DNA from: Lingula anatina
Lineage: Eukaryota > Animalia > Brachiopoda
Reading direction: 5' to 3'
Length of the DNA stretch: 64,000 bases
Assembly (NCBI GenBank): GCA_051362555.1
Contig: CM120644.1
Span: forward strand, 25,256,534-25,320,533
The translations under genes were made by a program, and so were the position numbers. How positions within the stretch are numbered: position 1 is the stretch's first letter; the number at the start of each line of letters is the position of its first letter. Of the stretch, positions 3,358-64,000 are shown piece by piece. The notes under the pieces were generated by a model, which worked only from the letters and a program-made list of their open reading frames with translations, searched no databases and had not been told where the DNA came from.

Positions 3358-3787
3358 CTGTATCATATCTCTTGTATTTTAGTTGTCTGTGATGTGCCTC
3401 CCACCTTCCAGTCCCTGATCCACTCCTGTACAGTGAGATATGACTGTATCATATATCTTATATTTCAGATGTCTGTGATGTGCCTCCCACCTTCCAGTCC
3501 CTGATCCACTCCTGTACAGTGAGATATGACTGTATCATATATCTTATATTTCAGTTGTCTGTGATGTGCCTCCCACCTTCCAGTCCCTGATCCACTCCTG
3601 TACAGTGAGATATGACTATATCATATATCTTATATTTCAGATGTCTGTGATGTGCCTCCCACCTTCCAGTCCCTGATCCACTCCTGTACAGTGAGATATG
3701 ACTGTATCATATATCTTATATTTCAGATGTCTGTGATGTGCCTACCACCTTCCAGTCCCTGATCCACTCCTGTACAGTGAGATATGA
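3358..3787 (+). repeat. Acceptor-junction tandem array, 5 x 86 bp
   Basis: AGs end at 3382, 3468, 3554, 3640 and 3726. Unit is about 25 nt of intron end plus 61 nt of exon start. Confidence 0.95.
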
Positions 3788-3933
3788 ATGGGGCACTGAT
3801 GACAGCAGGGACTATAACACCTCTTGGACACCGCTGGTCAACACAACTGACCACCCCACTGACCAGTGGACATACCAGTCTGCTTTCAAGCTGAGGTCAC
3901 TTCCATTTGCTGGAAAACATGGCACTTACAATG
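3727..3933 (+). CDS. PKD1-like polycystin exon (DVCDVP...WTYQS...GKHGTYNG)
   Basis: Begins at the last AG of the 86-bp array and ends at |gtaaac. Phase 1-1, with the conserved W.YQS and G....Y.GGGY motifs. Confidence 0.9.
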
Positions 3934-4028
3934 GTAAACTATTTCTCCCTGTGACTACATGAACATGTAGCAAGTGCATAACTAGTGGGCTTGATTTGGT
4001 CTTAAAGTGCAATTTAAGAACACAAATA

Positions 4029-5701
4029 CGGTAATTCTCCAATCTATACGAACGATTTAAATTAATTATTTTTGGAAGATAATCATTTTGTTCGTAAGGC
4101 TTGAAATTCAGTCTGCTAAAAATTGCTACGCGTTCGTATCCATTGAAATACGAATGGAATAAGGCTGTACCCGAAGTTATCTCCACTTACCTACATTGCT
4201 AAGTGTAAGCATTACTTTCAGATCAAATCACTGTGATCAGCTTTTAGCACAAACAAATTATTCTTGCGATATTGCAATGAATTAAAACAAACTAAACAAA
4301 AGTCGGGAATTCAAGTTAAGAAACAATTTCTTCACACTAAAGAGGTACATTTCTCCCAAGACAAGACAACATCGTTTTTCCCTGTTATGTTTTACCAAGA
4401 CAGGACAACATCGTTTTTCCCAACTTCTGTCAAAAACAGACAAGAATATTTGCGTATCCAGTTGCATATTTTACTTAATGCGTGTTTACTTTTCATATGA
4501 TTTAATTCACATATAGAAAATTTACAATATTAATAATGTCACCCCCCCCCCCCCCAATTAGGCCTACATAAATTTCTTCCGCCAAAACAAAATACTTGAA
4601 ACTCCTCACAGTAGATATCACTGACGTTAATAGAGATTATACTTGATATAAAAAATAACATCAGCTCAATTCACGTCTATTTATGAAAGTCTTTTACAGC
4701 ATATTAATTTGCACGCAATCAATGTAAACTTAATTAGAAAAAATACAGAAAACTGCAGGCAAATTTGTATAAAATCATACGGCACCTTTATTTTTCACAA
4801 TCACCAATATCAGTGAGGTTTACCTAATAGTTGTTCATGAGACAAGGTCTTTAACAAGGAAAACAAACAAACAAACAAACAAACAAAAAAGCATGAACTT
4901 TATCACAACTCAAATTAGAAAAATAAATACAATATAAGACAGAACTCCTCTTTAAAAATTTAATTTCCTAATGACTACCAAAAACAAAGAAAAACTCGAT
5001 CATTGACTATGGATTTCTCATACTCTTCTGTTGTGCGTACTCCCTACCAGGGCGAGTGATAGATTTTTTTTTACAGATATTCACAGATATGTCTCTAGCT
5101 AGATAGATTGTCATTTACAGCTGAACTGGGTTTAGCTGAAAATGACCATCTATCTAGCTAGAGACATATCTGTGAATATCTGTAAAAAATCTATCACTCA
5201 CCCTGGTAGAGGGTATGTTGTGCGTGGGTTTCACGTTTGTAGATTTTACGGGAAACCGGTTATCGGTGAAACACCGATGGTGGATGTTGATGATCCAGTC
5301 GGCCGGCAGAAGTTAGGAAATGATAATAAACAGTAAGTAATTTATGTGTACTGATGCTTTCAATAACTTCTAAATAACAATAAGGTTTTAAAACTGGCCT
5401 GCAGCTGCCGGCGGGCAGGTTGAGTCCTTCTATCGTCTCATTCAAAAACAGCACAAATACATGATAATCTCTCCTGTCAAGTGGCAGTTCCTTTGTTTGG
5501 AACGGTGGTCTGAAAACTCGCTTTGACGAATCATGGGGCGAGTTTCAATTGGGCACACTTTCTTGCGTTCGGAAAATTTAAATTGTGCCCAAGGTGAGTT
5601 TAGCGATCGTTCGTACAGAACGGAGACAAAAAATTCAGATTCAGAGAAAAAACGTTTCGTTCGTAATTATTGCGGCGTTCGTATAGATTGGAGAATTACC
5701 G
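4029..5701. mobile_element. Non-autonomous Tc1/mariner/pogo-type element nested in 3981-5994
   Basis: Perfect 26-bp TIR cggtaattctccaatctatacgaacg, flanked by TA on both sides. Confidence 0.85.
5039..5215. mobile_element. Hairpin MITE (MULE-like)
   Basis: Arms of about 80 bp form an inverted repeat; flanked by a 10-bp direct repeat, tgttgtgcgt. Confidence 0.7.
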
Positions 5702-6559
5702 TAGTCTTACATGATCTTAAAACATGAGTAGGACCATTTCTAGTTTGACAGCTAATTAAGTTGTTCCCCTTTACACATTCTCCTATTGTGAGCAGAGGTG
5801 TCCTCTACTGTTAGGGGAGGTATCCCCCCATTGTGAGGGGAGGAAACTGCTTGAGCACTGAAGTAGATGTTAGATCATTTTTGATCTTAAAAGCAGATTC
5901 AGTCCAATTTAAAACTACTGCTGTAATGATTAAGATCGTGTAAGATCACTTGTGAACTTAAAATGCACTTTAAGACCAAATCTAGCCCACTAGTGATATA
6001 ATGATGGTTAATTCAAACTGCTACAGGTACTTGTGGCTTGGTTTTTCTAGAATAGCATATTAAATGTTTATTTTAAAGTAATTAATTTGAAAATGTACGT
6101 TCTTTATTCATGTTTGCATTGCTTACTATTACTTATTGTCTTTGAGCCATGGTCAGCTCACAAGGCTTGTCGGCATCCTTCACCATCTCCCTCCATCTTT
6201 TGCTGCTTTATTTGCTTTTACTTATGAAGATATTTACTATATAAATATAGTTTGTGTTTTTATTAGACTGTCTTTCTTGAATCCGTACAATTCAGCAACT
6301 ATGCTGACTTTGTTGACTAGAAAAATGCCAATAAAATAAAAATATAGATTAGAATGTTAAAGCAATTGAAATAAACCAATACACGACCATACATGTATCT
6401 CTTAACTTTGGGGAGGGGGAGGGGGGCGCTTTTTTGGTTCAACTTGATTAAAAATAACATTCTCTGGATAGATACTTTTGTATGTTCGTTGGAGGATGTG
6501 TAAAACTCCTTGATGATGCCAGAGGAAATTTAGAAAAACTCTATGACTACATGTACTGC

Positions 6560-7987
6560 ATATGATATTTTAGGTGGAGGATATGTGAAACTCCTTGGTG
6601 ACACCAGAGATAAAAGCCTGTCTCTAGTATTATATGATATTTTAGGTGGAGGATATGTGAAACTCCTTGGTGACACCAGAGATAAAAGCCTGTCTCTAGT
6701 ATTATATGATATTTTAGGTGGAGGATATGTGAAACTCCTTGGTGACACCAGAGATAAAAGCCTGTCTCTAGTATTATATGATATTTTAGGTGGAGGATAT
6801 GTGAAACTCCTTGGTGACACCAGAGATAAAAGCCTGTCTCTAGTATTATATGATATTTTAGGTGGAGGATATGTGAAACTCCTTGGTGACACCAGAGATA
6901 AAAGCCTGTCTCTAGTATTATATGATATTTTAGGTGGAGGATATGTGAAACTCCTTGGTGACACCAGAGATAAAAGCCTGTCTCTAGTATTATATGATAT
7001 TTTAGGTGGAGGATATGTGAAACTCCTTGGTGACACCAGAGATAAAAGCCTGTCTCTAGTATTATATGATATTTCAGGTGGAGGATATGTGAAACTCCTT
7101 GGTGACACCAGAGATAAAAGCCTGTCTCTAGTATTATATGATATTTCAGGTGGAGGATATGTGAAACTCCTTGGTGACACCAGAGATAAAAGCCTGTCTC
7201 TAGTATTATATGATATTTCAGGTGGAGGATATGTGAAACTCCTTGGTGACACCAGAGATAAAAGCCTGTCTCTAGTATTATATGATATTTCAGGTGGAGG
7301 ATATGTGAAACTCCTTGGTGACACCAGAGATAAAAGCCTGTCTCTAGTATTATATGATATTTCAGGTGGAGGATATGTGAAACTCCTTGGTGACACCAGA
7401 GATAAAAGCCTGTCTCTAGTATTATATGATATTTCAGGTGGAGGATATGTGAAACTCCTTGGTGACACCAGAGATAAAAGCCTGTCTCTAGTATTATATG
7501 ATATTTCAGGTGGAGGATATGTGAAACTCCTTGGTGACACCAGAGATAAAAGCCTGTCTCTAGTATTATATGATATTTTAGGTGGAGGATATGTGAAACT
7601 CCTTGGTGACACCAGAGATAAAAGCCTGTCTCTAGTATTATATGATATTTCAGGTGGAGGATATGTGAAACTCCTTGGTGACACCAGAGATAAAAGCCTG
7701 TCTCTAGTATTATATGATATTTTAGGTGGAGGATATGTGAAACTCCTTGGTGACACCAGAGATAAAAGCCTGTCTCTAGTATTATATGATATTTTAGGTG
7801 GAGGATATGTGAAACTTCTTGGTGACACCAGAGATAAAAGCCTGTCTCTAGTATTATATGATATTTTAGGTGGAGGATATGTGAAACTCCTTGGTGACAC
7901 CAGAGATAAAAGCCTGTCTCTAGTATTATATGATATTTTAGGTGGAGGATATGTGAACCTCCTTGGTGACACCAGAGATAAAAGCCT
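6560..7987 (+). repeat. Acceptor-junction tandem array, 20 x 72 bp
   Basis: AGs end at 6573+72n up to 7941 (12 TAG, 8 CAG). Unit is about 26 nt intron plus 46 nt exon. A degenerate copy lies at about 6491-6525. Confidence 0.97.
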
Positions 7988-8176
7988 TGCAATTCTTGCG
8001 AACCTGCAGGAGTCCAAGTGGATAGACCAGAGGACGCGTGCCGTGTTTCTGGAGTTCACCTTGTACAATCCCCAGGTGAACCTGTTCAGTGTGGGACAGT
8101 TCCTGCTGGAGTTCCACCCCACTGGGGCTGTGTTCCCTTTCTATCAGATCTTTACTTGTAAATTTTACCAATATGG
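7942..8176 (+). CDS. PKD1-like polycystin exon (GGGYV...WIDQRTRAVFLEFTLYNPQVNLF...TGAVFP)
   Basis: Hallmark polycystin motifs; ends gg|gtaagt in phase 2. The start is placed at the last of 20 possible in-frame acceptors. Confidence 0.9.
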
Positions 8177-8610
8177 GTAAGTTATTACTGGGGCTGTGTT
8201 CCCTTTCTATCAGATCTTTACTTGTAAATTTTACCAATATGGGTAAGTTATTACTGGGGCTGTGTTCCCTTTCTATCATATCTTTACTTGTAAATTTTAC
8301 CAATATGGGTAAGTTATTACTGGGGTTGTGTTCCCTTTCTATCAAATCTTTACCTGTAAATTTTACCAATATGGGTAAGTTATTACTGGGGCTGTGTTTC
8401 CTTTCTATCAAATCTTTACTTGTAAATTTTACCAATATGAGTAATTTACCACTGGGGCTGTGTTCCCTTTCTATCAAATCTTTTACTTGTAAATTTTACC
8501 AATATGGGTAAGTTATTACTGGAGCCGTGTTTCCTTTCTATCAAATCTTTACTTGTAAATTTTACCAATATGGGTAAGTTATTACTGGGGCTGTGTTCCC
8601 TTTCTATCAG
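8121..8610 (+). repeat. Donor-junction tandem array, 66-bp unit, left part (7 donors)
   Basis: GT at 8177, 8243, 8309, 8375, 8441, 8508 and 8574. Unit is 56 nt of exon end plus gtaagttatt. Confidence 0.95.
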
Positions 8611-8793
8611 GGCTGGGTTGTATGAAAGCCGTATAGCACTATACGCTGGATAAATCAGCCGTGTAACTTATACGGTTCTTATACGGGTTGCATGAAAGCT
8701 GTATAACTTTATACGGCGGATAAATCTGCTAAATGGTCGGTTAAAGTTATACGTCTCAGGGAGGTCGTTTAAATAGTTGTACAGTGGATAAAA

Positions 8794-10661
8794 ATGGCGT
8801 ACCTGCTGAGGTTCCACAGGAATCCTCAGCAGTATAATCCACCTAGACAGAGGAGAGAGAGGACTTTTCGAAGAGAAGTATTTGACTTTGACGGCTATAC
8901 TGATTCTGAACTGCGTGCAAGGTTTCGTTTTGGCAGAGAAGGCATTAATTTGATAGAGAGAATGTAGGAAGAGGAACTGCAGCCTGCGACTGGCAGGAGC
9001 TGTTCTCTCTCGGTGAGGGAACAAGTTCTCATTGCTTTGCGTTTCTATGCCTGTGGCTCATATCTCCAAGTGGTTGGTGATACAATCGGTGTCGACAAGG
9101 GCACGGTGTGCAGGGTTGTGAGAAAAGTGTCGTTAGCCCTGTGCAGAAGGAAAGACCAATTCATTCAATTCCCAACAGACCCTAGGGAGAAGGCCACGAT
9201 CCGCCGTGGGTTTTTTAGGATTGCCAGATTCCCTGGGGTCATCGGCTGTTTGGACGGAACACACATTAGGATAACGGCGCCCACGTTGAATGAGCCTGCA
9301 TTCGTAAATAGAAAAAACTACCACAGTTTGAATGTCCAGGCTATATGTGACCACAAAGGTATTGATCTTTATTACATATTCAAAACATAAATATTAAGAG
9401 CTCACCGTAAATAACACGACCAACATCTGCAGCGTTCGTGGTTCAACTTCATAAGTCGGCCATTTTTGCGGCCATGACCTTGACTTCTTCAGTGTGACTG
9501 ATCGAATGTGCAAGCAATGTTTATGCAGGTGCAACTAATGCAATCTGCTTAGATAATCATTTTTATGAATAACAAAAACATTGCAGAGCCACATAATTGC
9601 AAATTTAAAAGTTAATTCTCATATTAAAACTTGAGTTATAAATAAGTATTGATATAAATGAAGATTAACATGATGAAATTGAATGCTAACATATTACTTC
9701 AATTTTATTTTCATCACCTTGTCATATTCCATTTCATAAAGGCAAACTTATATTAAACTGTTTTGAAAAAAAATTGAAAAAAGTGAAATTGTTGCACAAA
9801 TGTTATGCTTTCACCATTATTATTGTTTTAATTATTGTCTTCCTCTTCTCCTTAAAAAAAAAACATCCTCTATATTCAGTTCCTTTTTTTTTTTTCTTTT
9901 TATCTCAGGTAGATTTACAAATATCGTTGCCCAGTGGCCTGGTAGTGTCCATGATGCCCATATCTTTTCCACATCAGCGGTTGGGCGTCACCTAAATCAA
10001 AACCAGCAACCAGAGGATGGGGTCCTCCTAGGCGATAGTGGTTATGCCTGCAGGCCATATTTAATGACACCATATCTTCACCCTGTAGGGAGAGCCCAAA
10101 GGAGGTTTAATAGGGCCCACAGGAGCACAAGAAATCTCATAGAGCGAGTGTTTGGCATGTGGAAAAAGAGGCAAGCAACAAAAAAAAAAATATATATATA
10201 TATATTTTAAGCAAAATTGATAAAGAAATGAACAAAAAAAAAAAAAAAATGAAATAAAACAATAACCAAATACTTCTTTATGTCTGAGGGATAATAAACA
10301 ATTATGTGTGCATACACTGTGAATGAACATGTTTTAAATGAAAAAAATTGTATCCTCACAAATTATTTAAGTAAATTAATAATAATTAATAATAAATTAA
10401 TAATAGAAATAATAATATATATTTCATTTTGCTCATTATAGATTTGGTTGCCTAAATATAGGATTCAGGATGGCCCCAGCTAGAGTGAGTACCATAGTTG
10501 GAGCATGCGCCGTCCTCCACAACATTGCAATAAACTTGAAGGAGCCCATTCCTGACAATGTACAAGTGCCTGCAGACAATGGTGACATGGGGGTGCAGTA
10601 TCAAGGACCCCAAGATGGTCGTGCAGTCAGGTATCATCTTGCTTCAACATATTTTGCATGA
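8794..10661 (+). pseudogene. Harbinger (HARBI1-like DDE) transposase, exons 8794-9358, 9909-10170, 10442-10661, with an in-frame TAG at 8965
   Basis: Motifs ALRFYACGS, GCLDGTHI, WPGSVHDA, GDSGY, IERVFG.WKKRF and ACAVLHN. Intron 2 starts GC (ag|gcaagc). Confidence 0.9.
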
Positions 10662-11101
10662 TTGATATTTTGGTACCACCAACAACTTGGAGATATGTAG
10701 TTAACAAGCATAGAAATGTAAAGCAATGACAACTTGTTCTTTCAAACAGAGAGAACTAAACTGCTAGTGCCTAGCTTCAGTTCCTTTCCAATATTTTCTC
10801 TCAAATTTATATCTTCTCTCCCAAAATGAAACCTTATATGCAGTTCAGAATCAGTGTAAAAGTCAAAGTTAAATATGTGTCTTCGAAACTTCTCTCTTTC
10901 TCCTCTGTCTAAGTGGATTCGATGTCATTACAATCAAATTTAAATATAAAGCAATGAAACTCATTTGCTGTGATGAACCAATATTTATTAACTGTTATTT
11001 TTAATATTTCCAGATAATTTTTTTGTGTGTGTAACTGTCAATCAACATTTTATGAGAGTTGCTATATTTCAAAAAAATTCCAACAGATATTTATTTCTAA
11101 C

Positions 11102-11135
<34 letters not shown>

Positions 11136-12340
11136 AAGTACATATAAAAGTACTGATTCAGTTTTGTTTCAAATTGTAATCATCTATTCATTATGTGTTT
11201 TGTAATTGAAAAGCAATTATTGTGTTCAACGTGATATCCTTTTATAAATAACATTGTATGTACATTTTCATTAGCACATAATGCAATAAATATTAAAATT
11301 GACAATAGTAAATAATGTAAAGCTTTAAGAACACAATTGCCATATGTAAAATTCTTCATAAACACCAACTAACACTACACACACTAAAAGTTAACAATGC
11401 AGCAAAGCTGCCAAATGTAAAAACAAACAAACCAAAAAAAGGCAATAATAATGCACACAATAGGATACAGTCAATTCTGATGCAATAATACATTATGCTT
11501 ATAACTGCAAAGTGAACATCAAAATTCAATTATGCACAAAAGGTAATAGTGATGAAGGTAAAGGCATAAGGCTTTAGACCCATTAAAGTTTAAGTTTATA
11601 CTAGGAAATTTCAGAATAAGAAAAAAAAAATTTCACCAGAAAAATTGTATTAATTCAATAAAATTTATAATCCAATAGAGTTGGTTTTCTTATTTGAGCT
11701 GTATGTCAATCATAAGAATCATTCTTTTAAGTTAAAAAAAAAAGTAACAGTTTTTTCTTCATCGTAACATTTAACATTTAAATATCAAAAGTAATTAATC
11801 TATTGTCAATTTCTTGGGATTGTTTCTGTAGTAAAATTATTTGGAGATCTAATTTTTTTTTCTTTTTTTACTGCATTTTTCATTTCTTGTTCAAGAAGCT
11901 TGGCATGCAAGCCTTCCACTACACTGCTCACTGCAAAGACATGAAATCTAAAGGTTATTCATTTCTGCATAGTATCACTTATATTACATGTAAAATACCA
12001 AAACAAAATGATTAAGTGACTTTACCACTTGAGTAGTGAAATTAGAGTAATGCAAAAGTGTTGAAAACATTAATGCATAACTAATATATATACCCAGCAA
12101 GACTTAAAAATAATTAAATGCAAATATAACTGACCATGAATTGTCCTTTTTCTATTTCCTGCCCCACCTATAAAGGAAAATGTTGCATGTGCTTCATGAG
12201 TATGCCTTTTTATGAATAAGTACTTACAAAGAAAATGAAAAAAATCTGTCATTAAAACAAAATCAATTTTGCAATTGTTGTTAAACTGTGATATCTTCCA
12301 TTAATATGTTACATATGTTTTTTAGATTCCACATACATAC

Positions 12341-13680
12341 TTTTTACACTCCCTCTGCTACATGATGGCAGTGTTACAGCAGCCCTGGTGCTGGTTGTTG
12401 TTGCTGTTGTTGTTGTTGTTGGAGTTGGGCTGTAAATTGAGCTGTCATCATTTTCATTGTCATCATCATCATCTGCATCATCATTGCCTACTAAATGATA
12501 AATATTTATCAATAAAATTTTGGTATAATAAATTTTACCATTATAACTTTCAAACATAAAAAACAATATTTTCTAATTTAAAAGTGAATGTACATTATTT
12601 TTATATTCACAATTTGTTAAGGCAACAATTTTATCCTTTCTTAGTATTATTTTTTAAATTTTTTTTTACAAAACCCACCAAGAGCTGACAAATCTGTAAT
12701 ATCAATTGTGCTTAGTGGTTCACAGGTACGATACAACGAAAGTTTATTACGGCTGCATCGGTTGACTATATACAGTAATGTACTACCAGTTCGAAGTGGA
12801 TGTATTGATTGTGGCATGCATTTATTGTTTTCGACTATGTTTGATACATTTCAAGGACAAGAGAATATTTCCATTCACATTGGGATTTAACGTTTAGAAT
12901 CTAATCGTTTAGGACCTCAACTACGAGGCTTGCAGTGAAAGAAACAGCGGCTGTGAATCAGTAAGTGACTCTGCCTCGTTATAGAAGTTCAAGGTCAAAG
13001 TATATAAACATTGCAGACGATATGATTTTATGCAATTTTCTGAGCAACCGAATCACATTCAAGACTTATTTTGAAAGTTCAAAACCTATGTGACAATGGA
13101 ACATTCACTTACGGCGAACAAGTTAACATGCAACCGTTTGAGTTTTTTATGTAAAGAATGATGTGCACCGTGTTCATATTGAAACGGCAGTGTGATTCTC
13201 AGTGATTGATTTTAGCAGCATTTACACAAGAAACGAAGAACATTTTCATCATTTGAAAATATTTTTCAAATAAATAAAAATTTATTACTCACCTGTGGTC
13301 TCAAAACCTTCAGCAATACCCTCAAATGAGGGGTCATTGGAATACATGTCTATGATAGACTGTATCTGAGAGTCCACTGGGGGATGGGCTGGCCCGCCGC
13401 CAGTTCCCCCAGCATGTTTAACCAGCCCATGCTGGATCTTCTTGGCATGGGCAACCATTCCCCTCCACTTTTCCTTACATTCATGGGTGCTCCTCTGAGC
13501 TATGCCAAGTGCACTGACATTGTAAGAAATCTCTTCCCAACAAGTTTTCTTTTGTCTGTTGTCCAGACTTGTGGTAAGTTTGGATTTGATGGTATTTTGG
13601 TGCACTTGGCACAGCTCAGTTAGGAGGGAGGTTTCCCTCAAACTCCAATTTGTCTTCCTTGCCCTCTTACCAGAAGACAT
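12341..13680 (-). CDS. Harbinger Myb/SANT-like DNA-binding protein (exons 13680-13293 and about 12490-12341; degenerate coiled-coil exon near 11950-11800)
   Basis: RKTNWSLRETSLL...WEEIS...RSTHECKEKW...GTGGGP is the MSANTD/NAIF1-type signature; donor is |gtgagt. Confidence 0.85.
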
Positions 13681-14431
13681 TTTCACAGGACTGTACTTTT
13701 GTTTTAGCAACAGTGCCTGATGGGTAACCAAATATGGACATAGACCCAGTTGTTCATAGCAACTTCCTCAAAGTGAGGTTGTTCTTACCAATTATCCACT
13801 ATATAGTGATTTTATCCACCGTTTAGCTATCCGCCTGTTTATACGCTCTTTATGCAATGCATATTTATACACCTGTAACGTACCGATCTTAATAATTAAG
13901 CCATATCAGGATTCACCGACAAAAGAAATAATTGGAGAGTATCATTATCAAAAGCCACCGACGTTGGGCCGCAGCAGTGGTGAGGATTAGCTTGTTAAGG
14001 GGCCGTTTTGTCTCAGATGTCGGGGAGATGATCGTAACCTTACCAATCCTCAATACAGGTCGATCGTTCGACAGACATACCGTCGCCGAGGGTTCGGCCA
14101 GGGTTGCGACATTGAACCGACATCAAGCATATTAACGGATAAGGACCTTTTAACGAGCTTCCTCAACACTCAGTATATAAGGTCTAGAAAACTCTCGGTT
14201 GGATAGAAGGTAGAAGACGCAGATCAGTAGAACCTCTACTTGTTAACGACAACGACTGTAGGCCGATGTCCAGGCCGCCTCTAATCCTGTTCAATAAATT
14301 ATACAGTTAAACTTCTTCGTTGAGTTCATCTCTGACTGAGGCGTCCACCAGCAAGCCTCACGAATCAGTACGAGTACCTGTACGACATCACATTTGAGTC
14401 TACAAATTGGCGAGCTCCCAGATATTCAGGG

Positions 14432-15526
14432 ATGGACCCGGAGATAGTAAAGCAACTCACCAGTGGCGTGTTGCTAATGGCCAAGACAAGCCTGCAGACA
14501 GCCCAGGAGGACGGCCACTGGCGGAATTTGATGCAGGAGAGGTGGCGGTCAGAGGACGATCGCCACACAGCACAGGTACAACTATTGGCGGAGAACGGCC
14601 AACGATTAAAGAGACAGGAGACGCAGAGTAGGATAGACCTCCTCTGTCGACCCATATCGACGTGCGATGGCACAGTTCCAGAAGATACGAGAGAGTGGAT
14701 TGACCAGGTGGAGAGGACAATTCCCCGGTCGACAGACATACCGGAGGCCACTATTCGCATCGCGCTGCAGACCACAAGCGGGGCGTTGGCCTCAGAAATA
14801 GATCACCACCTACAACAGAGGCCCGAATATTATGGTGCGGATTGGGCAACCCTCCGCAACCACATCCGCCGGGTTTTTCTTTCGGCGGATGAGACAACAT
14901 CTTTGCGGGCGGAATTGGAAAAAATAAAACAATCGCCTTACGAAAATACAGCAGCATATAGCCGAAGAGTAAGAGAAGCCGCCAAGAAGGCGTACCCCCT
15001 CCCTCGTAGCACAGACGCCGAATTTAACCTTGTAAAGATTTACGCTCGCGGCCTGTCAGAGGTCCGACTGGCGCGAGACTTGTTACGTCGAGGGAGGCCT
15101 AAAACTCTACAAGACGCCATCAAATTTGTTGATAACGAGGAGGTTGGAGACCTCATGTTTAAAACTGTGTACGGAGACCGCCTGACAACACCGGCCAGGG
15201 TGGAAGAACCCATGGAGATTGGTGCAACACAAAAAGAAGAGACGCCAGCCTGGGTAGAAGAGCTGACATCATTAACACGTTCCATGGCAACCCTACTACA
15301 GCAGAACCAACAGCGATCTACACATGTACCCCAACAGCGACAGACACAAGCTAAGCCCAGACCACGGTTCAACAGCCCTAGAGGTGAAAGAGGTTGGACT
15401 GAAAATGGTGAAGTAATTTGCTTTCATTGTAACAAAATCGGACATTATAAAGCAGACTGTTATCAGCTTAAAGGTAGTCAGAGAAGACAGGGGACAGGTA
15501 GGCCTAGAAGTAACCATTTAAACTAA
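14432..15526 (+). CDS. gag: Gypsy Gag with CCHC zinc knuckle
   Basis: 364-aa ORF with EEPMEIG and CFHCNKIGHYKADC, immediately after the PBS. Confidence 0.92.
   Translation: MDPEIVKQLTSGVLLMAKTSLQTAQEDGHWRNLMQERWRSEDDRHTAQVQLLAENGQRLKRQETQSRIDLLCRPISTCDGTVPEDTREWIDQVERTIPRSTDIPEATIRIALQTTSGALASEIDHHLQQRPEYYGADWATLRNHIRRVFLSADETTSLRAELEKIKQSPYENTAAYSRRVREAAKKAYPLPRSTDAEFNLVKIYARGLSEVRLARDLLRRGRPKTLQDAIKFVDNEEVGDLMFKTVYGDRLTTPARVEEPMEIGATQKEETPAWVEELTSLTRSMATLLQQNQQRSTHVPQQRQTQAKPRPRFNSPRGERGWTENGEVICFHCNKIGHYKADCYQLKGSQRRQGTGRPRSNHLN
15517..15523 (+). promoter_or_regulatory. -1 ribosomal frameshift slippery site T TTA AAC
   Basis: X XXY YYZ heptamer in the gag frame directly before the gag stop; the -1 frame opens into the protease. 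Confidence 0.8.
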
Positions 15527-16085
15527 TAGCGGCAGCAGGACGCGCTGGAGACCGAGTAGGAATAGAGGTTAGTTTACACGGTATTAAATGTGTAGCTTTA
15601 GTAGATACCGGCGCCAGCACCTCCTTGCTGCACTATTCCGTTTATCAGAAGTTATGCGAAAAAATAGCGAGACCAAGATTAGTAAAATTTTCTCAACCCA
15701 TTGTTAGTGTTACAGGGCAGAGATTAGACGTGGTAGGCAGAGCCCAAATTAGAATAGACAACGCCACCACAGTAGATATGCTACTGGTTAGAAATATAGA
15801 TCACGACATGATTCTGGGCAACGATACCCTCCAAACTCACAGGGGTGTCATTAATTACAACACCAATACATTGTGTTGGTGCCGAAAGGAATGGCCATTA
15901 GTGGAATACACGCGTAACGCCTCGGCGTCTACGTTGTGCACTTCACTATTGAAAACTACACCTGTGGGTGACGAGGTAATAGACGAGGTGTTAAGGGAGT
16001 ACAATGACATATTTAGCGTGAAAGGGGACCCCCACGGGCTGGCAAAGGTGGAACCAATGACAATAGATACAGGGAATAACCCTCC
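15517..16085 (+). pseudogene. pol: Truncated Gypsy pol (aspartic protease only), in the -1 frame
   Basis: The -1 frame reads ...CVALVDTGASTSLL...MILGND. RT, RNase H and integrase are absent. Confidence 0.88.
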
Positions 16086-16361
16086 ATCAAAAGCCACCGA
16101 CGTTGGGCCGCGGCAGTGGTGAGGATTAGCTCGTTAAGGGGCCGTTTTGTCTCAGATGTCGGGGAGATGATCGTAACCTTACCAATCCTCAATACAGGTC
16201 GATCGTTCGACAGACATACCGTCGCCGAGGGTTCGGCCAGGGTTGCGACATTGAACCGACATCAAGCATATTATCGGATAAGGACTTTTTAACGAGCTTC
16301 CTCAACACTCAGTATATAAGGTCTAGAAAACTCTCGGTTGGATAGAAGGTAGAAGACGCAG

Positions 16362-17048
16362 GGGCCGGTTTCACAAAGCAGTAGTTAGTTAGCGATCGGT
16401 AGTTAGCCTCTCGCTAGTTATAATGCCGTTTCACGAAGCAGTCGCTAGTTCTCTCGCTCTTTATTGTGTCGTTGTTACCATGGATATTTAGCGACTGGTC
16501 AGACCAGTCGCTAACTCTAGAGTTTCATCGTACGCATGCGTAATGAATGAAATAGAAAGGTTGCTTAGTTACCGTTGTCTGTCGTTTGTCTTTGTATCCA
16601 ATATGGCGACGACCTTTTTTGCTATCCGTACCGCCAGACGGCAACGTAGACTACGACGTTTTCATGAAAGGCAGAATCTATTAGAATATACACGCGATGA
16701 TGCAATTTACGAGAGGTTGCGCCTAGCTGTGACAAAAAGAGCGGCAAAAGGGTGGTGGAGATCCTTTACGACGACCTCAAAGCAGACGTTCTTATGCATT
16801 TCCAGCCGCCGGAAATTGGAGAGTTAGTGCTTTCGCGACACTTTTACACAAGAGTTCCACTTCCGGTAGACTGTTTCGAGACTACGGTGAGTAACAAGAG
16901 AACTAACGACCGAACTTTACGACTGAACTTAGCGATGAGTTAACTACTGCTTCGTGAAACACCCCTCGAAAATCGCTAAGTTTGCTCGTTAGCGAGGTAG
17001 TTCAGTAGTTAGTTGTTCTAACTAACTACTGCTTTGTGAAACCGGCCC
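16362..17048 (+). mobile_element. Non-autonomous Harbinger-derived element inserted in the 3' LTR
   Basis: TIR gggccggtttcacaaagcagtagttagttag and CAG TSD; the empty site is visible in the 5' LTR. Carries a transposase N-terminal remnant (TRDDAIYERLRL). Confidence 0.92.
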
Positions 17049-17323
17049 CAGATCAGTAGAACCTCTACTTGTTAACGACAACGACTGTAGGCCGATGTCC
17101 AGGCCGCCTCTAATCCTGTTCAATAAATTATACAGTTAAACTTCTTCGTTGAGTTCATCTCTGACTGAGGCGTCCACCAGCAAGCCTCACGAATCAGTAC
17201 GAGTACCTGTACGACATCACATTTGAGTCTACACACCGTTTAGCTATACACCGTATAGGGCATTTACACACTGTATAGAGTTATCCGGCGTATAGTGCTA
17301 TATGGCTTTCATACAACCCAGCC

Positions 17324-17812
17324 CAGATCTTTACTTGTAAATTTTACCAATATGGGTAAGTTACCACTGGGGCTGTGTTCCCTTTCTATCAGATCTCTTT
17401 ACTTGTAAATTTTACGAATATGAGTAAGTTATTACTGGAGCCGTGTTTCCTTTCTATCAAATCTTTACTTGTAAATTTTACCAACATGGGTATGTTAATA
17501 CTGGAGCCTTGTTTCCTTTTTATCAAATCTTTACTTGTAAATTTTACCAATATGGGTAAGTTATTACTGGAGCTGTGTTCCCTCTCTATTAAATCTTTAC
17601 TTGTAAATTTTACCAATATGGGTAAGTTATTACTGAGGCTGTGTTTCCTTTCAATCAAATTTTTACTAGTAAATTTTACCAATATGGGTAAGTTATTACT
17701 GAGGCTGTGTTTCCTTTCAATCAAATTTTTACTAGTAAATTTTACCAATATGGGTAAGTTATTACTGGGGCTGTGTTTCCTTTCTATTAAATCTTTACAG
17801 GTAAATTTTACC
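17324..17812 (+). repeat. Donor-junction 66-bp array, right part (7 more donors), separated by the Harbinger insertion
   Basis: Resumes in register after the CAG target-site duplication (TSD); GT from 17356 to 17754. Copies are more diverged. Confidence 0.95.
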
Positions 17813-19131
17813 ATTGTGGTTAGGTTATAGTCCATGAGCCAAATTGAAAAAAGGCCTTATTTAAGGATTTGGCTGCACCCCCCGTCAAACAAAGGTTTTA
17901 TGATTGATTCTTGTAGTTTAGAACCTGAATTTTTCATTTCTGCTTGTTTCCGGCTTGAAAAAGTGTCCGTTTGTACCGGAAACAGGCCAAATCCAAGATG
18001 GCCGCCAGTAAATTCATGTGTCAACTGTAAATACAAAAATTGATTTTAAAGTTACTTAACAACTTAATATTATCAAAATTTGCACTGATCACAAGTACTT
18101 TGGCCTTCTTTGATTTTTCAGGCACTTTACATTTTTCAAAATGGCGACTGAATCCAAGATGGCGGCCATTTTCCTTACTTTTTGTGAAAAAATACAAATA
18201 CCTAAATTTGAAATTTTTTTTATTAACCAAAAATTAGGAATATTTTACATGTTTTGGTGTATTTGAATAAGTTGAAGTCTATATTTTTAATTTTTACCAG
18301 TTAATTTATCACAAAATTGTACATTTGAACACAGATGGCTCTAATCCAAGATGGCCACCACATAAAATGGGCTTTTTGTTTTGATACGTCAAAAAGAATT
18401 TCTCAGTATAAAACATCTCAGACTACTTAATGGAGGATTTATTGCACAGGTCATGGTATGAAATGTATGACTGAATAATTTAAATTGTTTTGAGATTTTG
18501 TTCAGGGTATAAAAATCCAAAATGGCCGCCAATTTCTGGATTCAAAACATACATTATTTTGATTTGCATGTTAAAAAACATTAAATTGAATAATTAGCAA
18601 ATTAAAAATATTTATTTTTTGATAAATTTATCTGTATTGCAATCTCATTTTGCTTCTTGGCCACTTTATTCTGTCAAAAAGTGGTTAATTTTTCTTCATT
18701 TATCATGATTCCAAGTTTGCCATTGATAAAAATGAACTGCACGCGACCCGTATGGACAATACCACATGTTATGAGCCTTACGTAAAAGGCTATTTCTGAG
18801 CTTTATTGTTCAAGTAATGGAATGGAATATATAACTGAATGATTCAAAATGTTTTTAGGCTTGTAGTTTAGGGTTGAAAAGTCCAAAATGGCCGTCAATT
18901 TCTGGATTCAAAACAAATGACATTTTGATTTGCATGTTGAAAAGCATCAAATTGAATGATGGGCAAATGATTAAAGACTATATTTTGATAAACTGCAGTG
19001 TCCTCTTACTGTTTAGAATCTAATTTTTCCAAAAAGTAATTATCTAAGCTCCAATCATCAAAAATATCCAAGATGGCCACCAACAAAAATGAATTTTAGG
19101 TAAACATGGATGAAAACACACTGTTGAGTCG

Positions 19132-19195
<64 letters not shown>

Positions 19196-19221
19196 CAATT
19201 TTTTTCAGCAGCAACTATATA

Positions 19222-20513
19222 CAGGGTTGCTACTTAATATGGAATATTTTTTATCATTGTTATTTTTGAGTGCTGATTAAATATTTTTTGGCTTGATTCA
19301 TCAAAAAAGTATATCATTGAGTGAGAAAAATATCCAGTCTTCCATTGTGAGATATTTTGGTCAATAATATCAAATCTGACATAAGATGTCATTCAAAAGA
19401 AAAGAACACCCCCAGAAAACCATATCAACAGTTTGATGTCAGTATTAACTTTAAGCTAAGATATTAAAGAAAATGATAGCCTCCGGACAGTGATAAGTTA
19501 CACAGTCAAAGAAATCATTACAGTAAATCATGAAAAGTCATCAACAGCGGGTATGACCTCCAGCAGCCGCTTGCAGCGCCCTCATCCTACATGCCATACC
19601 CTGTGACAAGTTTTTTAGAGTTTGGATGTGGATATCATTCCACGCAGTGATATTTGCCTGTCGCATTTCATCACTATTTACCGGCCGATGACCATAGCCA
19701 TTAATTCTCTGAGTTACTTCCGCCCACAGATTTTCAATTGGGTTTATTACTGGGGAGTTTGCAGGCCAGGGCAGTTGCTGAACCTACTGGTTTTGAAGAA
19801 AAACAGTGATTCTGCGAGCTCTATGTGGGGTTGCACAGTCGTCTTGGTACACAAAGCTGTTCCTAAAGATGACTCTTACAAATCGAAGCATTGTTTGCTG
19901 TAGAATGTCTCTGTAGGAACCCTGGTTGAGGTTGCTTCCCAGAAAAACCAACTGGTTCTGGACACCGGCATGGAATGCTCCCCAAACAGAGACGTTACCA
20001 CCCCCTGCTTGCACCCTAAGTAGTACACAATCATTGTTTTATGCCTCTTGTACACATCGGCGGACACGGATTCGACAGTCAACCCCCAAAATTCCATATC
20101 TGACCTCGTCACTGAAAACGACGTGATTCCAGTGTTTTGACTGCAAAAGCACGTGGTCCCCAGCCCATTGCAGACGTCGCTGTATATGACCTGCTGTTAA
20201 CAGTGGTTTACGTACTGGTCTTCGTGCAAAATAACCAGTTTGCTGTAATCTTTTGTTCACAAGGGGCCTTGAAACGGGCGTTTGAAAGGCATTCTGCCAC
20301 TCTTTTTTGAGGACACTGGTTGTCTTTGTACGACCAGCACGGCGCACTCTAAGGAGAAGGCGATCCTGTCTTCTTGGTGTGGTACGCGGACACACCTGGC
20401 TACACATAGAGTGACCCCTCAGTTTTGGATTTAAAATAGTTGGAGAGAAATTAAATATTTTGTAGAACATTTTCTCGACAAAAAATAATATTCCATATTA
20501 AGTGGTAACCCTG
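19222..20513 (-). mobile_element. Tc1-family transposon with a frameshifted transposase
   Basis: TA TSD and an imperfect ~27-bp TIR, cagggttgctacttaatatggaatatt. Motifs RRPVRKPLL, VVFSDE, VSVWG, QDD.A.PH and NPIENLW. Confidence 0.9.
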
Positions 20514-22362: not shown

Positions 22363-23298
22363 GGTAGATCGGTCGTTACGTAATTTGACGATTTGCGCAA
22401 TTTCAGCGCATCGTCAATCGTCTCTAACGACACAGTGTCACACTTCAGTCTGTTTTATCAATTTGAGGAAATAAAACAATTATCTATAAGATAAACACAC
22501 ATTATCAACTTGTCTGTAACTCTGTATGATCGATATAGATTTTCGACAACGTTTGTCGACTATGATTCCATACGACAACTGTAGCACGTTCATAGACTCG
22601 CCCTTCAAGAAATCGTCGGAATAGCTCCTTTGGCACGAGCAAATGTATGGCAGCTAAAGCTCACAAATTATGCACGTAGATGCTATATCATGTAAAGAAT
22701 AAGTGTTGTAAATTCCAATCAAAGCGGCTGCTTACATTTTGAGGTAGAACGCCCTGAATGTGCTGCAAACCGCAGCTCAGATTTCGACGAAAACCGGAAG
22801 TGCGTCGTAACGCCACTCATTTGGAGTTAGAGAAATTTGGACTGAGAAATATTTCGTAGCTTAGATCTATACAAATGTTCAGAAAATGGCCATACAGCTT
22901 GAAGAAAATTCACTAATCAAAATTGAAACTGCGTTATATTATACAGAAAAATTGTGCACTTCTGACCTTGACTTGTCAGTGTAAACAAAGTATACTGAAC
23001 GCACCGCAAGCAAGCATGCACGTGAATGCCGCATTTGATACTTTGTATCAGACGCTTCATTTTACTTGACATCACAGTGTTTACGATGTCACGTTCATGT
23101 TTTATTCATTAAAAAATAACAACGGCAATAAACTATTTTCATATGCATGAGTATTTCCCTTATTACTCTCTTCAAGAATTTTGTTGTAAAGTTAATGGCT
23201 TACACCTTCTCATCAATTTGACAAATCTGAAAATAGCTGAGTATACTCATTTCAACTGTTAAACATAATGAAAGTTTTAAATGTACTTAGATGTCTCT

Positions 23299-23336
<38 letters not shown>

Positions 23337-27201: not shown

Positions 27202-27275
<74 letters not shown>

Positions 27276-58676: not shown

Positions 58677-58966
58677 ATATTTTGCTGTATATATGAAGTA
58701 GATGGCCAGTGGTCTCATATTTTGCTGTATATATGAAGTAGATGGCCAGTGGTCTCATATTTTGCTGTATATATGAAGTGGATGGCCAGTGGTCTCAGTG
58801 GTCTCATATTTTGCTGTATATATGAAGTGGATGGCCAGTGGTCTCATATTTTGCTGTATATATGAAGTGGATGACCAGTGGTCTCATATTTTGCTGTATA
58901 TATGAAGTAGATGGCCAGTGGTCTCATATTTTGCTATATATATGAAGTGGATGGCCAGTGGTCTCA
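58677..58966 (+). repeat. Acceptor-junction tandem array, 7 x 40 bp
   Basis: AAG ends at 58698, 58738, 58778, 58827, 58867, 58907 and 58947. Unit is 21 nt intron plus 19 nt exon. Confidence 0.93.
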
Positions 58967-59130: not shown

Positions 59131-59321
59131 GTAATATATATACTCAAAGCCCAAGAGATAATTATATGCTGAAAAAAATGGATATTAACTTAATTCAATA
59201 AAGTAAAAAAAATATATATATTATTAATTGTGTATAATAAAGGAACTCTTGTAGTACTCACCATTAGCTGATTAAACTGATATATAGTAATAATTGGCAT
59301 GCCTTCTTGCACACTTCCAAG

Positions 59322-59456: not shown

Positions 59457-61034
59457 CCCGTAGCAAAATTTTAAACTTCCCGCACACTGTTTCTGTGTAT
59501 GCGCAGCATATTCACAGTAAGGGTTTCTGCGCATGTGCGGCACACCTCATTTGCATGGTAAAATACACACCTACCGCACACTCCTTGCACATCTCCTGCA
59601 CACTTCCTGCACACCCCCAACGCCACAACCAGCACAGTTCTTGCATACCTCTTGCATACTTCTTGCACACCTCCTGCGTACTTCTTGCACACCTCCTGCG
59701 CACTTCTTGCATGCCTACTGCATACTTTTTGCACACCTTCTGCGCATATCTTGCACACCTCCTGCAAACTTCTTGCACACCTTCTGCATACTATTTGCAC
59801 ACCTCTTGTGCAGTTAATGCACACCTCCTGCACAGTTTTGGCATACCTTCTTGCACACTTCCTGCACACTAATTAAAATATTTTATAACATGATTTAAAT
59901 TTTACGTGCTTGTTTTTCAGTCCCTTTATATTAATTCTACAAAGAATTAATATAAAGAATTACACTAAAGACATGTGCCAACAACTTAAAATTTTACTAA
60001 GAATGTTAGAAAAGTTAATATTATTCTTTAGAATCTGTACTGTCATTGAACAGAAATATTGTTAAATCTGTTTATCAACAACAAACAAGAAATTACAGTC
60101 ATATATTGTGCTTTATCAATCAAATTAAAAAATCGAACAAAATTAGCAAAATCCAAGCCATGTCCATATTTCTCTTCTTTACCTCTTTCTACCACATTTC
60201 TCTTCTTTACTCATCCTGTCCTGCTCCGTCCATCTAAAAAAATAGTAAACCGTAAAGTCCTACAAATTCACCACACTGCGCACAATGCTTAACATCCAAA
60301 TCTTAAACATCCATGTGGAGGACAAAAAACATCAATATACACATTACTGTTTGATAAGTCCTAAAATCAAGTTCAAGTGGTTATTGTTCATATAAAGAAG
60401 AGGTAGAAAGGAATGCATAAAAAATGTCTTGGATACTAAAAAACAAACAAAAACAAAGTGCTAAAACTGCTTTGAAGAATACTTCATGTACATCCCTTAC
60501 ATATTTATGTGATGTTGAAAGCTTATGGTTTATGGCTGCATTCACTTATATCCAACAAAATTTAAAGTATTGTTAAATGATATAAATATAATCAACTTGC
60601 AGTTAGTGATGTTCTCTTTTAAAACTTACTCTGCACAGCTCTTTCAACTAGATAATCCTTCACAAAAGAAACTGTTGCTGACAGTTCTTGTGGGCTGAAA
60701 AAACTCTCTAGTAACTTCTTTATCGCAAAGGTACTTGTATACTTTGTGTGAGTTTTGATGAGCCACCAACTATAGATATTCACAGCAAAGTCTGTCCCTT
60801 CTATTTATAAGCATGCAGTAGGAATGGGTTTCAGATCTGAAGGATTTCAAATATACATCAACATGTTTGAAATATGAGTATGTATATTGATTCGGCATAT
60901 TAGAGACACTAACATGAGTCAATAGTGATGATATAAGTTTGTTTTGCTAATTTGTATATTAATTCAGTGCACCATAAAATAGTTTTAGTACTCTCAGTTC
61001 ATTTGAAATTAATTATCTATGTATGTGATTCTAG

Positions 61035-61205
61035 TTGATGGTGGCTATTCAGACTGGAGTCCTTGGAGCACGTGTGCAGTCACATGTGGTGGTGGTCAGC
61101 AGACCAGGCAGAGGACATGTACCAATCCAGCTCCTCAGTTTGGAGGTGCTAGTTGCTCTGGACCCACATCAGAATCTCACACTTGTAACAGTCAGCAATG
61201 TCCAG
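61035..61205 (+). CDS. TSP1 exon
   Basis: VDGGYSDWSPWSTCAVTCGGGQQTRQRTCTNPAPQFGG...CP. Splice sites ttctag| and |gtaaca; phase 1-1. Confidence 0.93.
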
Positions 61206-64000
61206 GTAACATGTAACAGTCAGCAATGTCCAGGTAACATGTAACACTCAGCAATGTCCAGGTAACATGTAACAGTGAGCAATGTCCAGGTAACATGTAA
61301 CAGTCAGCAATGTCCAGGTAACATGTAACAGTCAGCAATGTCCAGGTAACATGTAACAGTCAGCAATGTCCAGGTAACATGTAACAGTCAGCAATGTCCA
61401 GGTAACATGTAATATTTAGCAATGTCCAGGTAACATGTAACAGTCAGCAATGTCCAGGTAACATGTAACAGTCAGCAATGTCCAGGTAACATGTAATATT
61501 TAGCAATGTCCAGGTAACATGTAACAGTCGGCAATGTCCAGGTAACATGTAATATTTATCAATGTCCAGGTAACATGTAACAGTGAGCAATGTCCAGGTA
61601 ACATGTAACAGTCAGCAGTGTCCAGGTAACATGTAACATTCAGCAATGTCCAGGTAACATGTAACAGTCAGCAATGTCCAGGTAACATGTAACATTTTAG
61701 CAATATCCAGGTAACGTAATATTTATCAATGTCCAGGTAACATGTAACAGTCAGCAATGTCCAGGTAACATATAACAGTGAGCAATGTCCAGGTAACATG
61801 TAACAGTGAGCAATGTCCAGGTAACATGTAACAGTCAGCAATGTCCAGGTAACATGTAACAGTCAGCAATGTCCAGGTAACATGTAACATGTAACAGTCA
61901 GCAATGTCCAGGTAATATGTAACAGTCAGCAATGTCCAGGTAACATGTAACAGTCAGCAATGTCCAGGTAACATGTAACAGTCAGCATGTAACAGTCAGC
62001 AATGTCCAGGTAACATATAACAGTGAGCAATGTCCAGGTAACATGTAACATTTTAGCAATATCCAGGTAACGTAATATTTATCAATGTCCAGGTAACATG
62101 TAACAGTCAGCAATGTCCAGGTAACATATAACAGTGAGCAATGTCCAGGTAACATGTAACAGTGAGCAATGTCCAGGTAACATGTAACAGTCAGCAATGT
62201 CCAGGTAACATGTAACAGTCAGCAATGTCCAGGTAACATGTAACATGTAACAGTCAGCAATGTCCAGGTAATATGTAACAGTCAGCAATGTCCAGGTAAC
62301 ATGTAACAGTCAGCAATGTCCAGGTAACATGTAACAGTCAGCATGTAACAGTCAGCAATGTCCAGGTAACATATAACAGTGAGCAATGTCCAGGTAACAT
62401 GTAACAGTGAGCAATGTCCAGGTAACATGTAACAGTCAGCAATGTCCAGGTAACATGTAATATTTAGCAATGTCCAGGTAACATGTAACAGTCAGCAGTG
62501 TCCAGGTAACATGTAATATTTAGCAATGTCCAGGTAACATGTAACATGTAACATTCAGCAATGTCCAGGTAACATGTAACATTTTAGCAATGTCCAGGTA
62601 ACATGCAATATTTAGCAATGTCCAGGTAACATGTAACATTTTAGCAATGTCCAGGTATCATGTAATATCTATCAATGTCCAGGTAACATGTAACAGTGAG
62701 CAATGTCCAGGTAACATGTAACAGTGAGCAATGTCCAGGTAACTTGTAACAGTGAGCAATGTCCAGGTAACATGTAATAGTCAGCAATGTCCAGGTAACT
62801 TGTAACAGTCAGTAATGTCCAGGTAACATGTAACATTTTAGCAATGTCCAGGTAACATGTAACATTCAGCAATGTCCAGGTAACATGTACCAGATCAGCA
62901 ATGTCCAGGTAACATGTAACAGTGAGCAATGTCCAGGTAACATGTAACAGTGAGCAATGTCCAGGTAATATGTAACATTCAGCAATGTCCGGGTAACATG
63001 TACCAGTCAGGAATGTCCAGGTAACATATAACAGTCAGCAATATCCAGGTAACATGTAACATTTTAGCAATGTCCAGGTAACATGTAATATTTATCAATG
63101 TCCAGGTAACATGTAACAGTGAGCAATGTCCAGGTAACATGTAACATGTAACAGTCAGCAATGTCCAGGTAACATGTAATATTTATCAATGTCCAGGTAA
63201 CATGTAACAGTGAGCAATGTCCAGGTAACATGTAACAGTGAGCAATGTCCAGGTAACATGTAACAGTCAGCAATGTCCAGGTAACATGTAACATTTTAGC
63301 AATGTCCAGATAACATGTAATATTTATCAATGTCCAGGTAACATGTAACAGTGAGCAATGTCCAGGTAACATGTAACAGTGAGCAATGTCCAGGTAACAT
63401 GTAACATTCAGCAATGTCCAGGTAACATGTACCAGATCAGCAATGTCCAGGTAACATGTAACAGTGAGCAATGTCCAGGTAACATGTAACAGTGAGCAAT
63501 GTCCAGGTAACATGTACCAGTCAGGAATGTCCAGGTAACATGTAACATTTTAGCAATGTCCAGGTAACATGTAATATTTATCAATGTCCAGGTAACATGT
63601 AACAGTCAGCAATGTCCAGGTAACATGTAACAGTGAGAAATGTCCAGGTAACATGTACCAGTCAGCAATGTCCAGGTAACATGTAATATTTAGCAATGTC
63701 CAGGTAACATGTAATATTTAGCAATGTCCAGGTAACATGTAACAGTCAGCAATGTCCAGGTAACATGTAACAGTGAGCAATGTCCAGGTAACATGTAACA
63801 GTCAGCAATGTCCAGGTAACATGTAACAGTGAGAAATGTCCAGGTAACATGTACCAGTCAGCAATGTCCAGGTAACATGTAATATTTAGCAATGTCCAGG
63901 TAACATGTAATATTTAGCAATGTCCAGGTAACATGTAACAGTCAGCAATGTCCAGGTAACATGTAATATTTAGCAATGTCCAGGTAACATGTAACAGTCA
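61184..64000 (+). repeat. Donor-junction tandem array, 28-bp unit, about 100 copies, running off the window
   Basis: Unit tgtaacagtcagcaatgtccag|gtaaca is the last 22 nt of the exon plus 6 nt of intron. Confidence 0.97.

What the first reader, a model, noticed from the sequence alone, without database searches (positions are those of the whole stretch)
3358..64000. Systematic tandem amplification of splice junctions: seven arrays, six unrelated unit types, two genes
Seen: arrays with units of 86, 72, 66 (twice), 89, 40 and 28 bp. Apart from the two 66-bp arrays they share no sequence, yet every unit straddles an exon-intron junction. Five arrays sit on inferred functional splice sites (about 5 of ~28 I could annotate). 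Each extends into the intron, and the exon-proximal copy is continuous with the full exon. The other tandem arrays in the window are TE-associated, microsatellites or the 47084 repeat. Inference: splice sites are a very small share of 64 kb, so this looks like a splice-site-focused amplification process, such as splicing-coupled R-loop or pausing damage, or repair templated by unspliced pre-mRNA fragments. I do not recognise this as a named phenomenon, but I cannot search the literature.
Basis: partly seen in the sequence, partly recalled or inferred. Interest (0 to 1): 0.9.

Follow-up and report, generated by a model that had tools for sequence, protein, structure and literature searches.

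The report
Splice-junction "mirage" minisatellites in a brachiopod
In two genes of a lamp shell (brachiopod), five exon edges with their splice signals are copied head-to-tail 5 to about 100 times into the introns; this repeat type is already named "mirage" in lancelets, and the extra copies are likely spliced out harmlessly.

Summary
The arrays are real. Five independent ones (units of 86, 72, 66, 40 and 28 bp) sit on 5 of 34 modelled splice junctions of a PKD1L2-like gene and an IgGFc-binding/TSP1 gene of a Lingula-type brachiopod. Random placement predicts 0.4-0.5 hits (P about 1e-5, post hoc, one window). The second 66-bp array is a copy of the first. The 89-bp array has no partner exon, so its junction is only a resemblance.

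The phenomenon has a name: "mirage" minisatellites of amphioxus, with human counterparts such as F7 and CBS. This scan has already noted it in annelid, abalone and shark genomes.

The units come from the gene's own exon, are younger than its paralog split, and turn over like ordinary minisatellites. RNA reads of one run use the exon-proximal acceptor at the 40-bp array. The three PKD sites were not tested on reads.

Most likely mechanism: DNA-level duplication biased to exon edges, filtered by selection, then amplified by unequal exchange. The R-loop or RNA-template idea is untested. Why exon edges are favoured remains open, also in the papers read.

The parts
2008..28969 (+). 3' part of a PKD1L2-like (polycystin) gene; exons 2008-2089, 2368-2672, 2959-3127, 3727-3933, 7942-8176, 28120-28969
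   Evidence: 615 aa without stop; Polycystin_dom and PKD_channel; 93% identical, ungapped, to Lingula proteins P0001, P0003, P0005
3358..3787 (+). 86-bp acceptor array, 5 units (25 nt intron + 61 nt exon); the last unit is the authentic start of exon 3727
   Evidence: use of any of 4 upstream acceptors gives a premature stop
6481..6559 (+). older, diverged copy of the start of exon E ahead of the 72-bp array
6560..7987 (+). 72-bp acceptor array, 20 units (26 nt intron + 46 nt exon); open in frame throughout, so use of an upstream acceptor would add 24 aa per unit
   Evidence: (0 stops; 5 of 5 upstream acceptors tested keep the frame)
8121..8610 (+). 66-bp donor array, 5' block (56 nt exon + 10 nt intron); the first unit is the authentic end of exon E
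8611..17323 (.). Harbinger DNA transposon inserted into unit 8 of the 66-bp array, with a nested LTR retrotransposon fragment
   Evidence: inverted ends and CAG target duplication; DDE_Tnp_4, Myb_DNA-bind_5, and weak gag/protease hits
17324..17828 (+). 66-bp donor array, 3' block; distance from the exon copy rises along the array
   Evidence: Spearman 0.82, P 3e-4, 14 extra units
30370..31256 (+). orphan partial copy of PKD exon E with its own 12-unit 66-bp array, behind the stop codon
38225..61205 (+). one IgGFc_binding x2 + TSP1 gene; exons 38225-38355, 43622-44988, 46386-46398, 53839-53898, 54138-54259, 56501-57733, 57932-58031, 58244-58285, 58948-59130, 61035-61205 (49774-49852 and 52241 onward are possible alternative end exons, not verified)
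   Evidence: open frame after the leader; Pfam; 27 RNA reads of X18 join the 46386 micro-exon to exon 53839
39460..40386 (+). 89-bp array, 10 units, acceptor-like but orphan: no exon continues from it
   Evidence: (no other copy in the window)
58677..58966 (+). 40-bp acceptor array, 7 units (21 nt intron + 19 nt exon); the last unit is the start of a TSP1 exon
   Evidence: 22 reads of X18 join the upstream exon to this copy
61184..64000 (+). 28-bp donor array, 98 units up to the window end (22 nt exon + 6 nt intron), with blocks of units repeated at higher order

Best explanation
Five exon edges plus their splice signals are tandemly repeated into the introns as 'mirage'-type minisatellites, likely started by a short DNA-level duplication at the exon edge, likely kept because one intact copy stays on the exon while the rest are spliced out, and likely amplified by unequal exchange. 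Step 1 (inferred): a repair or recombination template switch duplicates 28-86 bp that are mostly exon; exon DNA must be favoured over plain intron, for a reason not shown. Step 2 (inferred from anatomy): selection removes duplications inside exons and those that cut into the splice signal, which leaves units with 21-26 nt before an acceptor or 6-10 nt after a donor. Step 3 (seen at one site, otherwise by analogy): the exon-proximal site is used, so the protein is unchanged. Step 4 (shown by variant patterns): the arrays grow and homogenise in blocks, later collecting a transposon and being copied along with the exon.
For: Anatomy matches the definition in PMC3087553. Units derive from this gene's own exon after its split from three paralogs: L197, D267 and V318 are shared by exon and array copies and absent from P0001, P0003 and P0005. 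Edge copies escape homogenisation: T192 and N260 occur only in the exon copy, while the array copies and all three paralogs have P and K. Block turnover: repeated runs of unit types in the 28-bp array, a run of one variant in the 72-bp array, a gradient in the 66-bp array. Splicing: 22 reads of X18 join the upstream exon to the last 40-bp copy, and the bin 58545-58799 holding the first copies has depth 0 in 3 of 3 RNA runs. Use of a pseudo-site would give a stop in 4 of 5 arrays. No qualifying array lies wholly inside the 5.7 kb of exons.
Against: The starting event is not shown: in-register microhomology at the array ends is only 0-3 of 14 letters. Why exon edges are hot is unexplained. X18 is a divergent individual (most of its reads 90-95% alike, with a 9-nt in-frame insertion in the upstream exon) and may not carry the array at all, and X12 and X15 have little or no depth on this gene. 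The three PKD junctions and the 28-bp donor were not tested on spliced reads. The 66-bp orphan array shows no gradient (rho 0.01).
Confidence: 0.55

Rival explanations
1. A splicing-coupled process makes the first copy: R-loops or polymerase pausing at splice sites break the DNA there, or unspliced pre-mRNA or lariat-exon intermediates template the repair, so breakpoints follow the spliceosome footprint.
For: Strong local enrichment. The intron parts cluster at 25, 26, 21 nt (acceptors) and 10, 6 nt (donors); P 0.001 to 0.024 against uniform breakpoints if lower bounds of 20/6 or 15/5 are assumed.
Against: With no lower bound the clustering is not significant (P 0.27), so it depends on bounds that I chose. 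Known cases differ: human F7 has 4 exon + 33 intron bases and amphioxus BflGb6 about 52 intron bases (my count on supplement 4). No direct RNA signature was found, such as a unit joining two exons.
Confidence: 0.2
2. There is no bias in mutation: tandem duplications arise evenly, selection removes the exonic ones, and this window was noticed because it is an extreme draw among very many windows.
For: The test is post hoc on one window of a large scan, and 29 of 34 junctions have no array.
Against: Even duplication predicts most non-TE arrays in plain intron, yet 5 of 7 are at junctions. Unchecked AI notes report the same pattern in several other invertebrate genomes.
Confidence: 0.17
3. The arrays are kept for a function: as decoy sites that tune splicing or nonsense-mediated decay, or, for the 72-bp array, as an in-frame extension of the polycystin extracellular loop.
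For: The 72-bp array has no stop over 20 units. 96 of 97 units of the 28-bp array keep the donor GT. The four variants shared by 3 or more units of the 66-bp array are all synonymous.
Against: One open array among five is about what chance gives (my estimate). Most other unit positions are as invariant as the GT. Distinct variants are 8 synonymous of 21, P 0.03-0.16. None of three paralog proteins carries an insert.
Confidence: 0.05
4. The arrays are assembly artefacts.
For: The raw reads of the assembly were not examined, and copy numbers are unverified.
Against: Units carry structured variants and higher-order blocks. A transposon with a target duplication sits inside one unit. A diverged second copy of exon plus array exists. 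Summed contig depth of DNA run X2 is 3357 in the bin that holds the start of the 28-bp array against 174 in the bin before (a rough sign only, and X2 may not be independent of the assembly).
Confidence: 0.03

Closest known systems
Amphioxus 'mirage' minisatellites (Adh3, globins BflGb6 and BflGb9, troponin C, PGBD5); PMC3087553 section 16 and supplement 4 read, PMC3902484 one passage read; Canestro et al. 2002 not held, known only through these citations
   Same: Tandem units spanning a 5' or 3' exon boundary, units of 10-160 bp, one authentic copy, concerted evolution that excludes the edge copies, apparently normal splicing, origin stated as unclear.
   Different: Here a brachiopod; three arrays in six exons of one gene, one exon flanked on both sides, up to 98 or more units; shorter intron parts; one array open in frame; haplotype and somatic instability not tested.
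Human junction-spanning VNTRs: F7 IVS7 (37 bp), CBS IVS13, LMNB2, PDGF intron 4, 6-16 gene; PMC1557585 passages read
   Same: A reiterated donor with the most upstream site normally used.
   Different: These are isolated donor cases (F7 mostly intronic: 4 exon + 33 intron bases); here units are mostly exonic and include three acceptor arrays.
Intron gain by internal tandem duplication (Rogers model; Zhuo 2007; Gao and Lynch 2009), seen only as cited in PMC3087553
   Same: An internal duplication carrying splice signals that leaves the protein intact.
   Different: Here the units include existing intron sequence, and the host introns hold other sequence too; no new intron is shown.

Membership tests
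mirage minisatellite | head-to-tail units of minisatellite size | tested here: met
   units of 28-89 bp, 5 to 98 copies
mirage minisatellite | unit spans an exon-intron boundary of the host gene | tested here: met
   5 arrays on modelled junctions plus 1 on an exon copy; the 89-bp array is excluded
mirage minisatellite (89-bp array only) | unit spans a boundary of a host exon | tested here: not met
   no exon continues from it, no other copy in the window, gene open without it; no Lingula model of this gene came up
mirage minisatellite | one authentic copy on the exon, extra copies in the intron; 5' or 3' boundary | tested here: met
   3 acceptor and 2 donor arrays
mirage minisatellite | mRNA is spliced normally | tested here: inconclusive
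   22 reads of one divergent individual at 1 of 5 sites; paralog proteins carry no insert; other sites not tested on reads
mirage minisatellite | concerted evolution with edge copies excluded | tested here: met
mirage minisatellite | length instability between haplotypes or cells | not tested
   only indirect: 15 units against 12 in the duplicated 66-bp locus
intron gain by tandem duplication | a wholly exonic duplicate becomes a new intron | tested here: not met
   units contain intron sequence and the host introns hold other sequence as well; intron positions in relatives were not available
transposon-derived satellite | unit comes from a dispersed element | tested here: not met
   the five units match only their own exon and its local copy in the window self-comparison; the rest of the genome could not be searched

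The most novel reading that the evidence does not exclude
A splice-site-directed mutational process operates in this genome and across marine invertebrates: duplication breakpoints track the spliceosome footprint (21-26 nt before acceptors, 6-10 nt after donors), about one junction in seven gets amplified, and the arrays exchange sequence with the coding exon and can supply in-frame protein extensions such as the 72-bp array.
Probability: 0.2. Interest if true: 0.75.

Novelty: new member of a known kind. Interest (0 to 1): 0.32.

Why it matters
Mirage repeats were described from a handful of amphioxus and human loci, and the paper read calls their origin unclear. A dense set in a brachiopod widens the range and gives a test bed for how one splice site is chosen among up to 100 identical ones, and for the proposed route from mirage to new intron. 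My searches (for the phenomenon; 23 and 63 for Lingula) listed no genome-wide survey and no brachiopod report, and 'minisatellite' does not occur in the main text of the Lingula genome paper (its supplements not seen). The library lacks most subscription journals. If a genome-wide test showed breakpoints tied to the spliceosome footprint, that would be a new link between splicing and mutation.

Tried and rejected
No whole genome is held, so no genome-wide test. No RNA holder was listed in the index search; RNA runs were added by species label only. Spliced reads and other individuals' alleles at PKD exon E were not obtained, so that question stays open. Microhomology as the seed: 0-3 of 14 letters in register, no support. 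Faint older mirages at other junctions: none above the shuffle maximum among the other 30 of 35 exon ends within 1.5 kb (the highest, z 3.5 at acceptor 56501, stayed below it). A lost exon behind the 89-bp array: two homolog searches returned no Lingula model of the gene, so unresolved. Coding constraint on 66-bp copies: not significant once transitions are weighted. Selective loss of decoy donors in the 28-bp array: not seen, 96 of 97 keep GT. Three papers were not held. Left out of the enrichment count: the 30475 array (a copy), arrays with period under 20, fewer than 3 copies or score under 200, and the second 66-bp block (merged with the first). No earlier notes exist for this genome.

Full report
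Setting. The window is animal DNA of 36% GC. The last exon of the first gene is 94% identical to a protein named PKD1L2 of Lingula anatina, so it is a lingulid brachiopod. No whole genome is held. I read all 64 kb and built two gene models. The first is six exons of a polycystin gene giving 615 residues without a stop, aligned without gaps to three Lingula paralogs at 93%.

Observation. TRF finds all the arrays. Unit make-up: 86 = 25 intron + 61 exon, 72 = 26 + 46, 40 = 21 + 19 (acceptors); 66 = 56 exon + 10 intron, 28 = 22 + 6 (donors). The exon-proximal copy always continues into the whole exon. The blocks at 8121 and 17327 are one 15-unit array cut by a Harbinger element with a 3-bp target duplication. 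The block at 30475 sits on a partial copy of the same exon behind the gene. The 89-bp array looks like an acceptor plus a short reading frame but has no partner exon. So there are five independent junction arrays, one copy and one orphan.

Chance. With 34 junctions, random placement of the founding unit predicts 0.38 hits among 11 independent arrays (5 seen, P 1.2e-5), or 0.52 among 7 non-TE arrays on 23.8 kb of unmasked DNA (5 seen, P 3e-5). A scan of 35 exon ends finds an intronic echo above the shuffles at these 5 only. The test is post hoc, the mask is mine, and the window was chosen for this pattern. Against artefact: structured variants and higher-order blocks, a transposon inside a unit, and raised contig depth at the start of the 28-bp array in DNA run X2 (a rough sign).

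History of the arrays. Three residues (L197, D267, V318) are shared by the exon and its array copies but by none of three paralogs, so the arrays arose from, or were homogenised with, this gene's exon after the paralogs split. Two changes (T192, N260) are only in the exon copy, where arrays and paralogs agree: the edge copy drifts on its own. In the 66-bp array the distance to the exon copy rises with position (rho 0.82, P 3e-4, 14 units); it rises weakly in the 28-bp array (rho 0.26, P 0.009) and not in the orphan 66-bp array. The four variants shared by 3 or more units of the 66-bp array are synonymous, a hint that old exon alleles are stored there, but overall 8 of 21 distinct variants are synonymous (P 0.03-0.16).

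Splicing. Using a pseudo-site gives a premature stop for the 86-, 66-, 40- and 28-bp arrays; the 72-bp array is open and would add 24 residues per unit. In one search, 22 reads of X18 join the upstream exon to the last 40-bp copy, and none of the 3 RNA runs has depth in the bin with the first copies. X18 is a divergent individual that may lack the array, and X12 and X15 barely cover the gene, so this is weak. The PKD junctions were not tested on reads.

Mechanism. I favour a DNA-level duplication biased to exon edges (inferred), a selective filter that keeps only units with an intact splice signal on the exon-proximal copy (inferred), choice of that copy by exon definition or oriented scanning (from PMC1557585, and one site here), and growth by unequal exchange (shown by variant blocks). 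The filter alone does not explain the scarcity of arrays in plain intron, so a bias in origin or in amplification is needed. Exons are richer in GC (46% against 36% for the window) and may be the only long homology between haplotypes or paralogs (reported heterozygosity 1.6%), but both ideas are untested. The short intron parts could mark a spliceosome footprint, but significance depends on assumed bounds (P 0.27, 0.024, 0.001), and F7 and BflGb6 do not follow it. Microhomology at the ends is negligible.

What is known. [quoted passage not shown] PMC3902484 (one passage) adds troponin C and PGBD5. PMC1557585 (passages) lists F7, CBS, LMNB2, PDGF and 6-16 in humans. Canestro 2002, Zhuo 2007 and Gao and Lynch 2009 were not held. 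Unchecked AI notes of this scan report the same in annelid, abalone, shark and other invertebrate genomes; they gave me the name together with my own search and are not counted as evidence. That 3-bp target duplications are typical of Harbinger elements is recalled, not from a call.

Verdict. A real, dense and clean set of mirage minisatellites in a phylum for which my searches listed no report: a new member of a known kind. The open point of value is why exon edges are favoured, which needs the whole genome.

Noticed in passing
window 8611-17323: Harbinger element with an intron-containing transposase (+) and a Myb-like gene (-), a nested LTR retrotransposon fragment (LTRs about 13947-14404 and 16086-17233, gag and protease, rest missing), and a further insertion at about 16362-17048 inside the second LTR.
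   Followed up: partly
window 59294-59462: Decayed TSP1-like pseudo-exon with a frameshift between the two intact TSP1 exons; its acceptor region (59294-59318) matches 59838-59862 at 24 of 25 letters, the end of the nearby 11/22-bp array.
   Followed up: partly
window 49774-49852 and 52241-52600: Two exon-like stretches with good splice signals and a poly(A) signal that may form a short alternative 3' end after the first IgGFc domain; not checked on RNA.
   Followed up: no
window 58244-58285: RNA of X18 carries 9 extra in-frame bases in this 42-nt exon and a divergent start of exon 57932, so individuals under the same species label differ strongly.
   Followed up: partly
window 39460-40386: The exon-like part of the orphan 89-bp unit reads as a short Cys-Pro-Ser-x-Trp peptide that recalls the start of C-type lectin domains (recalled, untested): possibly a mirage whose exon was deleted.
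   Followed up: partly
protein P0005: This paralog's annotation begins just at the exon whose acceptor carries the 86-bp array in the window; perhaps a repeat broke that model too (speculation).
   Followed up: no
window 43622-44988: CpG observed/expected is 0.80 in the first IgGFc exon against 0.23-0.28 in the exon groups that carry arrays, a hint that array-bearing exons lie in germline-methylated DNA.
   Followed up: no
window 47082-47440 and 48153-48210: A palindrome-rich 89-bp x4 array unrelated to the other 89-bp array, with a 58-nt copy 0.7 kb away beside a TE-like repeat; not at a modelled junction.
   Followed up: partly
window 61184-64000: Some variants of the 28-bp unit gain T-rich AG ends, so that 10-nt micro-exon-like pieces occur inside the array; probably chance.
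   Followed up: no
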